Shown: piece by piece, positions 6,498 through 46,330 of the stretch | Layout: the number at the start of each line of letters is the position of its first letter | Numbering within the stretch: the stretch's first letter is position 1 | Virus record (IMG/VR): IMGVR_UViG_2541047733_000004 | Reading direction: 5' to 3' (one strand) | Length of the DNA stretch: 46,330 nucleotides | From: a virus | Taxonomy: Duplodnaviria > Heunggongvirae > Uroviricota > Caudoviricetes | Made by a program: the position numbers and the translations under genes | The notes under the pieces: model-generated | What the model saw: only the letters and a program-made list of their open reading frames with translations | Told to the model about the DNA's origin: nothing | Database searches by the model: none

Positions 6498-8464
<1,967 letters not shown>

Positions 8465-43630: not shown

Positions 43631-43649
43631 ATTTTATAACCCAGATACG

Positions 43650-43673
43650 GGCGCCAGAAATGGCGCCTTTTTT
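43650..43673 (+). terminator. Intrinsic terminator after J
   Basis: GGCGCC-AGAAAT-GGCGCC hairpin followed by TTTTTT. Confidence 0.6.
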
Positions 43674-43688
43674 ATTTGTGGAGTGAAT

Positions 43689-45749
43689 ATGGCAGTACAG
43701 ATTTCAGGCGTGCTGAAAGACGGTGCAGGAAAACCGATACAGAACTGCACCATTCAGCTCAAAGCAAAACGTAACAGCACCACGGTTGTGGTGAACACGG
43801 TGGCCTCAGAAAATCCGGATGAAGCCGGACGTTACAGCATGGATGTCGAGTATGGCCAGTACAGCGTTATCCTGCTGGTTGAAGGTTTTCCGCCTTCACA
43901 TGCCGGGGCCATCACCGTGTATGAGGATTCTAAGCCGGGGACATTGAATGATTTTCTGGGCGCTGCAACAGAAGATGATGTTCGTCCGGAGGCACTGTAT
44001 CGTTTTGAAAAGATGGTGGAAGAGGTGGCACGCAACGCTGAAGCCGCCTCTCAGAGCGCAGCGGCAGCAAAGAAATCAGAAACAGCAGCGGCATCGTCCA
44101 GGAATGCGGCGAAAACATCAGAGACGAATGCAGGTAACAGCGCGAAAGCGGCAGCTTCTTCAAAAACAGCCGCACAAAACGCAGCAACAGCGGCAGAACG
44201 TTCAGAGACAAATGCCCGTGCGTCAGAAGAAGCCTCCGCAGACAGTGAAGAGGCTTCCCGCCGTAATGCAGAGTCAGCCGCTGAAAATGCCGGAGTCGCC
44301 ACCACAAAAGCGCGGGAGGCCGCAGCAGACGCAACAAAGGCCGGGCAGAAAAAGGATGAGGCTCTGTCGGCAGCGACACGGGCTGAAAAGGCGGCAGACC
44401 GCGCAGAAGTCGCAGCGGAAGTGACTGCAGAGCCCTATGCGAATATAGTGCCGCCGCTGCCTGATGTGTGGATACCGTTTAACGATTCACTGGATATGAT
44501 TGCGGGTTTTTCTCCGGGCTATAAAAAAATAGCTATTGGTGACGATGTGGTTCAGGTCGCCAGTGATAAACAGGTTAATTTCAGTCGCGCATCAACGGCA
44601 ACATATATCAACAAATCTGGCGAACTGAAAACGGCGGAAATTAATGAGCCGCGATTTGAGTGTGATGGCCTGCTTATTGAGGGACAAAGAACGAACTACA
44701 TGCTCAATTCGGAAAGTCCAGCCAGCTGGGGGAAGTCATCAAACATGGATGTGCCCGAAACCGGGACAGATAGTTTTGGTTTTACTTATGGAAAGTTTGT
44801 CTGCAACGATTCTCTGGTTGGGCAAACTTCGGCTATTAATATGGCATCAATTGCTGCAACAAAGTCAGTTGATGTCTCAGGCGATAACAAGTACGTGACA
44901 ACCTCATGCCGTTTTAAAACAGAACGACAGGTAAGGTTACGTATACGGTTTGATAAGTATGATGGTAGTGCAACAACTTTTCTTGGCGATGCGTACATTG
45001 ATACGCAAACGCTTGAAATTAATATGACAGGTGGGGCTGCCGGCAGAATTACGGCACGAGTCAGGAAGGATAAGACCACAGGCTGGATTTTTGCAGAGGC
45101 AACGATTCAGGCAATTGATGGTGAGTTAAAAATAGGCTCTCAGATACAGTATTCTCCTGAGCGGGGTGGGGCAACAGTATCTGGTGACTATATTTATCTT
45201 GCCACCCCACAAGTAGAGAATGGGCCGTGTGTATCATCATTTATTATTTCAGGAGGCAGCGCAACGACAAGAGCCAGTGATTTGGTTAGTATCCCCACCA
45301 GAAATAATCTTTATAAGTTACCATTTACTTTTTTACTTGAGATTCATAAAAACTGGGATATTGCACCAAACGCCGCACCCCGCGTGTGGGATATAGCAGC
45401 AGCCAATACCGGGCAATCAGCAATTGCAGCAATCAACAGAGGTAGTGGTAAGTTATATATGAGTCTGTCAAACCCTTCAGGCTTGTATGTTAATAGCGCA
45501 GCGACAGATGTATTTGCAGAGAAAACCACATTTGGATGTATTGCAAAAGCTGATGGTCACTTTCATGTGGTGACAAATGGTAAAGCGGTTAATGAAGTTT
45601 ATTGTGAATATAATGGTGTGACCGCTGATAAAAATATCCGATTTGGAGGGCAGACGAATACTGGAGAACGACATCTGTTTGGCCATATTCGCAATTTCCG
45701 CATATGGCATAAAGAATTAAATGACAGGCAATTAAAAGAGGTCGTATGA
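43689..45749 (+). CDS. stf: Side tail fibre protein: lambda Stf-like N-terminus, divergent C-terminal distal domain
   Basis: N-terminal about 120 aa near-identical to lambda Stf (MAVQISGVLKDGAGKPIQNCTIQLKAKRNSTTVVVNTV...), then Ala/Ser/Glu-rich repeats, then an AT-rich distal part unrelated to lambda Stf. Confidence 0.85.
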   Translation: MAVQISGVLKDGAGKPIQNCTIQLKAKRNSTTVVVNTVASENPDEAGRYSMDVEYGQYSVILLVEGFPPSHAGAITVYEDSKPGTLNDFLGAATEDDVRPEALYRFEKMVEEVARNAEAASQSAAAAKKSETAAASSRNAAKTSETNAGNSAKAAASSKTAAQNAATAAERSETNARASEEASADSEEASRRNAESAAENAGVATTKAREAAADATKAGQKKDEALSAATRAEKAADRAEVAAEVTAEPYANIVPPLPDVWIPFNDSLDMIAGFSPGYKKIAIGDDVVQVASDKQVNFSRASTATYINKSGELKTAEINEPRFECDGLLIEGQRTNYMLNSESPASWGKSSNMDVPETGTDSFGFTYGKFVCNDSLVGQTSAINMASIAATKSVDVSGDNKYVTTSCRFKTERQVRLRIRFDKYDGSATTFLGDAYIDTQTLEINMTGGAAGRITARVRKDKTTGWIFAEATIQAIDGELKIGSQIQYSPERGGATVSGDYIYLATPQVENGPCVSSFIISGGSATTRASDLVSIPTRNNLYKLPFTFLLEIHKNWDIAPNAAPRVWDIAAANTGQSAIAAINRGSGKLYMSLSNPSGLYVNSAATDVFAEKTTFGCIAKADGHFHVVTNGKAVNEVYCEYNGVTADKNIRFGGQTNTGERHLFGHIRNFRIWHKELNDRQLKEVV

Positions 45750-46024
45750 AAGATTTAACTTTGAAGTTTCATGACAAACTGCAGTTTAAGGCCTTCCTGT
45801 CATCTCTTGACTGGGAGGAGGATGAAGACCTCCAGAATAAACTGTTAGTCGATGAAATTGGTTTCACCTACACAGAAACAGGGGTAACAGAAGAGGGAGA
45901 ACCTGTCTGTGTCCGGAATGACGGTTATTTTGTCAACATTCGCATTCTTGATGACTTGTTTGATGTTTCTGTATTCTCTGATTATGTCGTGGAGCTGGAA
46001 ACACCGCTTCGGGAATGGAGCTGA
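45746..46024 (+). CDS. Hypothetical acidic protein translationally coupled to stf
   Basis: 92-aa ORF whose ATG overlaps the stf stop (ATGA); acidic (DWEEDEDLQNK); unlike known Tfa chaperones. Confidence 0.45.
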   Translation: MKDLTLKFHDKLQFKAFLSSLDWEEDEDLQNKLLVDEIGFTYTETGVTEEGEPVCVRNDGYFVNIRILDDLFDVSVFSDYVVELETPLREWS

Positions 46025-46036
46025 AAGGAGGAAATA

Positions 46037-46330
46037 ATGGATATAAGCCCCTTACTTCATGCGCTTTGTGCTGTGGCTGCGCAGATACTGGTTGGTCTTT
46101 TTACCGGAAACTGGGCTTACGGAGCGATAGCCGGTTGTACGTTCTTCATTGCGCGTGAACATACCCAGGCAGAATATCGCTGGATTGAAATGTTCGGGCA
46201 TGGCAAGCGAATGAATATGCCGTGGTGGGGCGGTTTTGATCCGCGAGCTTGGGATGTGGCAAGCCTGATGGATTTTGCTGTGCCGGTGGTGGCGTGTCTG
46301 CTGGTCTGGCTGTTGGTTAATCGTGGGTGA
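46037..46330 (+). CDS. Hypothetical small membrane protein (two predicted TM segments)
   Basis: 97-aa ORF with AGGAGG RBS; hydrophobic stretches at both ends; terminal stop is the last codon of the window. Confidence 0.45.
   Translation: MDISPLLHALCAVAAQILVGLFTGNWAYGAIAGCTFFIAREHTQAEYRWIEMFGHGKRMNMPWWGGFDPRAWDVASLMDFAVPVVACLLVWLLVNRG

What the first reader, a model, noticed from the sequence alone, without database searches (positions are those of the whole stretch)
43689..46330. Tail fibre with a swapped distal domain plus two unknown coupled genes at the tail-fibre locus
The fibre N-terminus is near-identical to lambda Stf, but from roughly the midpoint the sequence becomes AT-rich and unrelated to lambda Stf, suggesting a horizontally exchanged receptor-binding module. 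It is followed, with ATGA coupling, by a 92-aa acidic protein and then a 97-aa protein with two predicted TM segments, neither resembling the usual Tfa chaperone. The downstream pair could be a novel fibre chaperone or a receptor-masking or exclusion function that travels with the receptor-binding domain.
Basis: partly seen in the sequence, partly recalled or inferred. Interest (0 to 1): 0.5.

Follow-up and report, generated by a model that had tools for sequence, protein, structure and literature searches.

The report
Lectin-tipped side fibre with two partner genes
A lambda-type side tail fibre carries an exchanged sugar-binding tip, followed by a small protein that accompanies this tip type in many unrelated phages and by a small membrane protein found after receptor-binding genes of many kinds; both are real, conserved and unstudied.

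Summary
The three ORFs are at the stated coordinates and are 100% identical to phage 21 genes 22-24, annotated side tail fiber, hypothetical protein and putative membrane protein.

**Fibre.** It has a lambda-Stf-type anchor and an Ala-rich stalk. From aa 253, where GC drops, it has a head made of a domain homologous to the capsule-binding RcGTA head-spike fibre plus a LamG-like domain. Lambda has no counterpart of this head.

**orf92.** It is not Tfa-like and has no structural relative. It always sits directly after, and overlapping the stop of, fibres with this head type. This holds in lambdoid, T1-like, T5-like, Nonagvirus and rV5-like phages and in an Aeromonas P2-like phage. Its allele class follows whether a second short fibre with a conserved N-terminus comes next, not the variable parts of the head. 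I read it as a dedicated fibre-end accessory subunit (assembly factor or joint). Here no second fibre is present.

**orf97.** It does not travel with this tip. Its family follows tailspikes and fibres of many kinds in all three tailed-phage morphotypes. It is also an ordinary chromosomal gene in Aeromonas and alphaproteobacteria. Its function is unknown; an envelope-acting role is my guess.

Interest is moderate. The exchanged tip is ordinary mosaicism; the two uncharacterised partner families are the part worth following.

The parts
43649..43678 (+). terminator-like GC hairpin plus T-run between J and the fibre gene
   Evidence: annotated as a terminator in phage 21. A consensus match only.
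43689..45749 (+). side tail fibre gene (686 aa), identical to phage 21 CPT_21_22
43689..44081 (+). aa 1-131: lambda-Stf-type tail-attachment domain
   Evidence: PF08400, 230 bits; 'Tail fiber protein' chain of 9e7m, E 1e-49; 74% identical to lambda orf-401 over aa 1-158
44082..44444 (+). aa 132-252: Ala-rich stalk (34% Ala), presumed coiled coil
   Evidence: composition; strong AT skew; weak similarity to the lambda stalk. The coiled coil is inferred.
44445..45338 (+). aa 253-550: domain D1, homologous to the RcGTA head-spike fibre
   Evidence: NF048003, 55.3 bits against a cutoff of 36; Rcc01080 chain 6tb9_F3, E 1.4e-9; the GC drop begins here
45339..45749 (+). aa 551-686: domain D2, LamG/ConA-like C-terminal domain with conserved end ...GGQT..G.RHLFGH[IV]RNFRIWHK.L.D.Q
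   Evidence: Laminin_G_3, 23.9-27.3 bits against a cutoff of 27.6; conserved C-terminus in 9 phage groups
45746..46024 (+). orf92: acidic 92-aa alpha/beta protein (phrog_1361); start overlaps the fibre stop (ATGA)
46026..46031 (+). AGGAGG Shine-Dalgarno sequence for orf97
46037..46330 (+). orf97: 97-aa inner-membrane protein (phrog_1443) with invariant loop AREHTQAEYRWI..FG.GKR.NMPWWGGFD

Best explanation
The locus is a modular side-fibre cassette.

(1) Shown. The fibre joins a lambda-Stf-type anchor and an Ala-rich stalk to an exchanged head. The head is a domain homologous to the capsule-binding head-spike fibre of the Rhodobacter gene transfer agent, followed by a LamG-like domain. By inference the head binds a surface polysaccharide such as O-antigen, LPS or capsule, and its variable stretches set the specificity.

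(2) orf92 is the dedicated small partner of this head type. It is translated by coupling to the fibre stop codon. I infer that it binds the conserved end of the head rather than the variable loops. There it would act as an assembly or stabilising subunit that stays at the fibre end. In many relatives this same unit is followed by a second short fibre with a conserved N-terminal peptide, so there it probably also serves as the joint for that fibre. This phage encodes no second fibre, so here only the assembly or cap role would apply.

(3) orf97 is a separate module. It belongs to a widespread family of small proteobacterial inner-membrane proteins that phages have repeatedly placed at the 3' end of receptor-binding-protein loci. 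It is expressed from its own strong ribosome-binding site behind the late genes. I infer, weakly, that it acts on a conserved envelope component during infection or lysogeny. It does not mask this fibre's particular receptor.
For: **Fibre architecture.**. Rcc01080 and its partner are needed for GTA adsorption (PMC5026251). Each spike carries a single Rcc01080 subunit (PMC7296036). The head-spike fibre binds the capsule (PMC10218006). IrisVonRoten, which has the same head + orf92 + second fibre, is reported to use O16 O-antigen as primary receptor (PMC8594841; PMC11990801).

**orf92 pairing.**
- In 157 of 160 IMG/VR loci the LamG-like end lies within 6 nt of the orf92 start.
- The same overlapping stop/start (ATGA, TAATG or TGATG) is seen in Tritos, IrisVonRoten (T5-like), PeterMerian (T1-like), JenP2, fp01, Aeromonas 13AhydR10PP and the uncultured phages L006, L105 and L106.
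- It is also seen in rV5-like CarlMeissner (hhalign probability 98.6%).

**orf92 versus head alleles.** orf92 at 91-97% identity is paired with head alleles of only 45%/36-40% identity. So it does not track the variable parts.

**orf92 versus a second fibre.**
- All 76 Tritos-type orf92 loci with enough downstream sequence carry a second fibre directly after.
- The first 40 aa of that fibre are conserved while its middle varies.
- All 77 window-type or b-type loci with downstream sequence have orf97 directly after and no second fibre.

**orf92 as a real protein.** Purifying selection and a confident compact fold.

**orf97.**
- 577 clusters across gamma-, beta-, alpha- and deltaproteobacteria, with an invariant loop.
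- It lies directly after a P22-like tailspike (JEP4), after a P2/HP1-like S74 fibre, between two pectate-lyase tailspikes, after a tail fibre assembly gene in phiHAP-1, and after S74/pectate-lyase and LamG proteins.
- It is a collinear chromosomal gene in five Aeromonas species.
Against: No binding, virion or genetic data exist for either small protein.

**orf92.**
- The link between orf92 class and the second fibre could be plain physical linkage of neighbouring genes.
- A joint-only role is contradicted by intact, selected orf92 in about 80 loci here, and by more than 1,100 E. coli genomes that carry the window-type orf92-orf97 arrangement, which has no second fibre.
- D1-only proteins (Rcc01080, RcapMu58) have no orf92 after them. 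So orf92 is not needed for D1 itself.
- The fibre is dispensable for plaque formation in isolates that carry an IS in it.

**orf97.**
- Chromosomal copies lie next to pnp, ligA or pirin.
- Tritos has a terminator-like hairpin in front of it.
Both points fit a passenger gene as well as they fit a fibre-related role.
Confidence: 0.5

Rival explanations
1. orf92 is a purely transient folding chaperone for the lectin-type head. In function it would resemble Tfa or gp57A. It would be absent from the virion and would not be a joint for anything.
For: It sits immediately downstream of the fibre with translational coupling, as known fibre chaperones do. It is kept under purifying selection where no second fibre exists. 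It is small and acidic. It is not allele-specific.
Against: There is no similarity to any chaperone family or fold. The head is built of globular lectin-like domains rather than the beta-helical fibre tips that known chaperones serve. D1-only proteins (Rcc01080, RcapMu58) have no orf92 gene after them. The orf92 class co-segregates with a conserved docking-like N-terminus of the next fibre.
Confidence: 0.25
2. orf97 is a superinfection-exclusion or surface-conversion factor. As an inner-membrane protein it would block entry of incoming phage DNA or alter export of surface polysaccharide, and so protect the lysogen or the infected cell.
For: It occupies the position where conversion or exclusion genes lie. 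In P22-like phages that is between the tailspike and int, and next to an O-acetylase in 611R6. In lambdoid phages it is after the fibre genes and next to cargo (sitABCD). Most upstream receptor-binding proteins are polysaccharide-directed. Its strong conservation suggests a conserved host target.
Against: PADLOC gives no match. It has no lipobox and does not co-vary with receptor-binding-protein type. It is often start-overlapped with late structural genes. Housekeeping-like chromosomal copies exist in Aeromonas and alphaproteobacteria. No promoter-like site lies in front of it.
Confidence: 0.25
3. orf97 is a passenger gene of cellular origin with a function unrelated to adsorption. It accumulates at the 3' end of receptor-binding-protein loci because that is a permissive, recombination-prone operon end. 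Its conserved DNA also serves as the right-hand homology arm for cassette exchange.
For: Chromosomal homologues have conserved synteny and lie next to pnp and ligA. Fragmentary, unannotated copies sit behind receptor-binding genes in Kuttervirus and HC6-like phages. It is 76-100% conserved while the cassette to its left is swapped. Tritos has a terminator-like hairpin before it.
Against: Strong purifying selection also holds in phage copies. It has been independently placed inside late operons with overlapping starts in very different phages.
Confidence: 0.3
4. The two small ORFs are non-functional leftovers of recombination at the fibre locus.
For: The locus is highly mosaic, and IS insertions occur in it.
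Against: dN/dS is well below 1. Homologues exist down to about 30% identity with conserved motifs. AlphaFold models are confident. Translational coupling and Shine-Dalgarno sequences are conserved.
Confidence: 0.02

Closest known systems
Lambda side tail fibre Stf with its assembly protein Tfa (orf-401/orf-314/orf-194)
   Same: Same N-terminal tail-attachment domain (PF08400). Same position after J. An accessory gene lies immediately downstream of the fibre.
   Different: From aa ~160 the proteins diverge, and the head (aa 253-686) has no lambda counterpart. orf92 is unrelated to Tfa in sequence and fold. There is no lom gene between J and the fibre.
RcGTA head-spike fibre Rcc01080 (GhsB), NCBIfam NF048003
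   Same: Domain D1 is homologous. In the GTA this protein binds capsular polysaccharide (PMC10218006, PMC7296036).
   Different: In the GTA it is a single subunit on a capsid-vertex spike. It has no LamG-like domain, and the phage copy RcapMu58 has no orf92-like gene after it. Here the domain is mounted on a tail-fibre stalk. Only residues 2-10 of Rcc01080 are resolved in the PDB entries, so the fold itself is not experimentally known.
Two-protein lateral tail fibres of T5-like phages (LtfA/LtfB of DT57C) and the BASEL lateral-fibre loci
   Same: A primary fibre carries a second fibre that ends in a Peptidase_S74 autochaperone. IrisVonRoten and PeterMerian have exactly the head + orf92 + second-fibre module.
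   Different: The published DT57C model has LtfB attached to LtfA and describes no small intervening protein. LtfC is the collar protein, which is unrelated. The window has no second fibre.
T4 gp35/gp36 hinge proteins and gp38 tip protein (recalled from general knowledge, not tested)
   Same: Small or medium proteins encoded next to fibre genes that join fibre segments or sit at the tip.
   Different: No sequence or fold similarity was detected. This is an analogy of role only.
Cor (phi80/N15/T1) and Llp (T5) receptor-masking lipoproteins; conversion genes after P22-like tailspikes
   Same: Small envelope proteins encoded beside receptor-binding genes.
   Different: orf97 has no lipobox, is predicted to be in the inner membrane, does not co-vary with receptor-binding-protein type and has chromosomal housekeeping-like homologues.

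Membership tests
Prophage tail fibre N-terminal domain (Pfam PF08400; lambda Stf anchor) | HMM match above the gathering score over the N-terminus | tested here: met
   230 bits against 26.6, aa 1-131; E 1.4e-49 to the 94-residue 'Tail fiber protein' chain of 9e7m
GTA head-spike fibre domain (NCBIfam NF048003) | HMM match above the curated cutoff | tested here: met
   55.3 bits against 36, aa 329-529. All 7 fibres upstream of orf92 homologues that were tested also match.
GTA head-spike fibre domain (NCBIfam NF048003) | Binding of capsular or surface polysaccharide | not testable with these tools
   Known only for Rcc01080 (PMC10218006)
Laminin_G_3 / ConA-like lectin (Pfam PF13385) | HMM match above the gathering score (27.6 bits) | tested here: inconclusive
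   23.9 bits in the whole protein and 27.3 bits on the isolated domain. It is the only Pfam hit in 10 of 10 D2 segments, at 13-27 bits.
Tail fibre assembly proteins (Tfa / Caudo_TAP, Pfam PF02413) - for orf92 | Sequence match to the family | tested here: not met
   No Pfam, NCBIfam or PDB match at E <= 0.1-10
Tail fibre assembly proteins (Tfa / Caudo_TAP) - for orf92 | Fold similar to a solved fibre chaperone | tested here: not met
Tail fibre assembly proteins (functional class) - for orf92 | Gene immediately downstream of its fibre, co-expressed with it | tested here: met
   ATGA overlap here, and equivalent overlaps in 9 other phage groups
PHROG 1361 (+18574), unknown function - orf92 | HMM match | tested here: met
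   E 8e-42 and 3e-6. Distant members hit both families.
PHROG 1443, unknown function - orf97 | HMM match | tested here: met
   E 2.4e-58
Cor/Llp-type receptor-masking lipoproteins - for orf97 | Lipoprotein signal peptide with a conserved lipobox cysteine | tested here: not met
   There is no basic n-region. Cys11 is not conserved in the 30-sequence alignment.
Cor/Llp-type receptor-masking lipoproteins - for orf97 | Co-variation with the receptor-binding protein it protects against | tested here: not met
   orf97 is 76-100% identical across all head alleles and follows unrelated receptor-binding proteins
Known anti-phage defence proteins (PADLOC-DB) | HMM match | tested here: not met
   No hit for any of the three proteins
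Holins - for orf97 | Match to a holin family, or location in a lysis cassette | tested here: not met
   No Pfam or PHROG holin hit. It is located in the fibre locus.

The most novel reading that the evidence does not exclude
orf92 would define an unrecognised, widespread class of tail-fibre end or joint proteins specific for lectin-type (GTA-spike-like + LamG-like) fibre heads. Its allele would decide whether a second receptor-binding fibre can be plugged on through a conserved N-terminal peptide. That would make a plug-and-socket system shared by lambdoid, T1-, T5- and rV5-like and other phages. Independently, orf97 would be a cellular small membrane protein captured by phages of all three morphotypes as a general envelope-acting factor encoded with receptor-binding genes.
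Probability: 0.3. Interest if true: 0.65.

Novelty: new variant of a known kind. Interest (0 to 1): 0.45.

Why it matters
Lateral and side fibres with this lectin-type head are common. They occur in 228 phage records. The window-type orf92-orf97 arrangement is present in at least 1,126 of 5,426 complete E. coli genomes, and 1,903 match at least part of it. The same head is found in model collections such as BASEL, where such fibres are linked to O-antigen recognition.

If orf92 is required for assembly of the head, or is the socket for a second fibre, it must be carried along whenever these receptor-binding modules are swapped in engineered phages or delivery particles. It would also explain how branched fibres are built in several phage families.

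orf97 marks a conserved, unstudied small membrane protein family at receptor-binding loci. It has cellular homologues and can be tested cheaply by expression and phage-panel plating.

Tried and rejected
- **Database searches for the small ORFs.** Pfam, NCBIfam and PADLOC gave no hit, and PHROGs gave only unknown-function families. PDB sequence and profile searches gave nothing.
- **Hypothesis that orf92 co-evolves with the head allele.** Rejected, because near-identical orf92 is paired with 36-45%-identical heads.
- **A second fibre elsewhere in the window.** None found.
- **DT57C LtfC as a possible equivalent.** It is the collar protein, unrelated.
- **rV5 virion proteomics.** rV5 carries a different fibre allele without orf92, so it is uninformative.
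- **rV5 gp29 membrane protein as an orf97 relative.** Not homologous.
- **Large PKD/TPR proteins hit by the orf92 profile.** These are repeat or compositional matches, not fusions. No Rosetta-stone fusion was found.
- **Literature searches** on phage 21 Stf, FIG/PHROG identifiers, ECOR prophages and Gifsy-1 Stf found nothing on either ORF.
Full report
**What is there.** The fibre stop and the orf92 start overlap as ATGA. orf97 follows after 12 nt that carry AAGGAGG. The 2.7-kb stretch is 100% identical to Escherichia phage 21 (genes CPT_21_22/23/24: side tail fiber, hypothetical protein, putative membrane protein) and to phage ev017. The window ends on the orf97 stop codon, as do many IMG/VR prophage predictions. 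That end is a prediction boundary: in complete relatives sitABCD follows on the other strand.

**The fibre.**
- Residues 1-131 are the lambda-Stf-type attachment domain (PF08400, 230 bits). By my count from the alignment, 83 of 94 aligned residues (about 88%) are identical to the 'Tail fiber protein' chain of PDB 9e7m.
- Against lambda itself, aa 1-158 are 74% identical and DNA is 85% identical over 367 nt. Nothing beyond the Ala-rich stalk matches. 'Near-identical' is therefore too strong.
- Residues 132-252 are 34% alanine.
- At aa 253 the GC content drops from about 0.56 to about 0.44 and a different module starts.
- Domain D1 (aa 253-550) matches the NCBIfam GTA head-spike-fibre domain (55 bits against a cutoff of 36) and Rcc01080 of the Rhodobacter capsulatus gene transfer agent (E 1.4e-9).
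- Domain D2 (aa 551-686) is LamG-like but sits just under the Pfam threshold (23.9-27.3 against 27.6 bits).
- Rcc01080 is needed for GTA adsorption, and the head-spike fibre binds the capsule polysaccharide. A glycan-binding head is the natural inference.
- IrisVonRoten carries the same module and uses O16 O-antigen as primary receptor.
- The head is an exchangeable cassette. In relatives the anchor/stalk and orf92-orf97 stay at 91-100% identity while D1/D2 drop to 45%/36-40%. The same head sits on unrelated N-termini in other phage groups. It occurs in 228 phage records.

**orf92: what it is.**
- It is acidic (pI 4.1) and folds confidently (pLDDT 90) into a small alpha/beta domain.
- It is under purifying selection (dN/dS 0.13-0.41).
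- It is not a Tfa.
- The family (phrog_1361 plus phrog_18574) is small: 80 clusters among 1.8 billion representatives.

**orf92: where it sits.** Its genomic behaviour is very regular. In 157 of 160 IMG/VR loci the LamG-like end lies within 6 nt of the orf92 start. The same overlapping stop/start is found in:
- lambdoid Tritos;
- T5-like IrisVonRoten and fp01;
- T1-like PeterMerian;
- Nonagvirus JenP2;
- a P2-like Aeromonas myovirus;
- three uncultured phage types;
- rV5-like CarlMeissner.

D1-only proteins (Rcc01080, RcapMu58) lack such a neighbour. The partnership is therefore with the D1 + LamG-like head.

**orf92: what it tracks.**
- Its allele does not follow the variable parts of the head. 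orf92 at 91-97% identity is paired with heads of 45%/36-40% identity.
- It follows what comes next. All 76 Tritos-type orf92 loci with enough downstream sequence are followed by a second short fibre.
- The first ~40 residues of that fibre (M[AV]T.T[VI]IP.DI..LK) are conserved from lambdoid to T5-, T1- and Nonagvirus phages. Its middle varies and its end is a Peptidase_S74 autochaperone.
- All 77 window-type or b-type loci with downstream sequence go straight to orf97.
- The window encodes no second fibre anywhere.

**orf92: my reading (inferred).** orf92 binds the conserved end of the head and acts as an assembly or stabilising end subunit. In the longer versions it also forms the joint for the second fibre. 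A purely transient chaperone is the main rival. A joint-only role is excluded by its maintenance without a second fibre.

**orf97.**
- It has two strong hydrophobic segments and one weak one, and three predicted helices.
- It has an almost invariant loop, AREHTQAEYRWI..FG.GKR.NMPWWGGFD, and dN/dS of 0-0.2.
- It has no family or fold match.
- It is not tied to this head. It stays 76-100% identical across all head alleles in the lambdoid set.
- In Tritos it follows the second fibre behind a terminator-like hairpin.
- Homologues lie directly after a P22-like tailspike, after a P2/HP1-like S74 fibre, between two pectate-lyase tailspikes and after a tail fibre assembly gene in Halomonas phiHAP-1. 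They also follow gpJ in Comamonas and S74 and LamG proteins in Desulfovibrio and Chelativorans.
- The family spans gamma-, beta-, alpha- and deltaproteobacteria.
- It is a collinear chromosomal gene in five Aeromonas species and sits next to pnp or ligA in alphaproteobacterial MAGs.
- It is therefore a cellular small-membrane-protein family repeatedly captured at the 3' end of receptor-binding loci. It has no lipobox and cannot be a Cor/Llp-type receptor mask.
- Whether it is an exclusion or conversion factor or a passenger gene cannot be decided here.

**Verdict.** The swapped receptor-binding module is ordinary phage mosaicism of a module already named by NCBI. The idea of a novel fibre accessory protein is supported for orf92 by comparative genomics only. 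The idea that the membrane protein travels with, or masks the receptor of, this domain is not supported. I found no publication on either small ORF. Both are conserved, uncharacterised and testable.

Noticed in passing
window 46330 (end of window); L018, L019, L021, L023 and others: The window ends exactly on the orf97 stop codon, and more than 20 IMG/VR prophage predictions end at the same base. This is a prediction boundary. In complete relatives the Fe/Mn transporter genes sitABCD follow on the minus strand.
   Followed up: yes
window 43649-43678: A strong terminator-like hairpin (GGGCGCC-AGAAA-TGGCGCC plus a T-run) lies between J and the fibre gene. There is no lom gene here, unlike lambda.
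   Followed up: partly
L181 (phage 4A7) 5876-8292; also 4C10, 1W, 3W: A three-ORF transposable element, apparently IS66-like, is inserted in the 3' end of the same fibre gene in isolated, plaque-forming phages. orf92 and orf97 are intact behind it. The side fibre is therefore dispensable in the laboratory.
   Followed up: partly
L097 5387-5644 (Aeromonas phage 13AhydR10PP): An 85-aa predicted lipoprotein (MKKMMLCAFAVIALSAC...) lies directly after the orf92 homologue. It could be a Cor/Llp-like exclusion protein.
   Followed up: no
L013 about 6790-6815 (Tritos): A terminator-like hairpin (GGGGCC-GAGC-GCCCC plus TTTTATT) lies between the second fibre and orf97. Homology to the window starts 9 nt before the orf97 ATG.
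   Followed up: partly
L005-L007 (E. coli prophages): The head + orf92 + S74 second-fibre module sits between the head genes (portal, protease-capsid fusion) and the tail tube gene of a different siphovirus type. That is an unusual place for a fibre locus.
   Followed up: partly
phage records MG065692 (Campylobacter phage C13), MG065653, MG065676, OR848352 (Listeria phage LM 4-14-1): Records labelled Campylobacter or Listeria phages carry coliphage-type fibre/orf92 modules at 40-71% aa identity. They may be mislabelled or mixed records.
   Followed up: no
L184 4938-5204 (rV5 gp29): An unrelated 88-aa membrane protein lies between two tail fibre genes of rV5. Small membrane proteins inside receptor-binding loci recur in unrelated families.
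   Followed up: partly
window 1-25000: The left part of the window carries an integrase and an OmpD/NmpC-type porin gene, going by the feature names of near-identical phages PhiR57_1 and ev017.
   Followed up: no
window 43930-44379 (minus strand) and other long antisense ORFs: Long ORFs antisense to the Ala-rich stalk region look like artefacts of its biased composition. Lambda's orf206b lies in the equivalent place.
   Followed up: no
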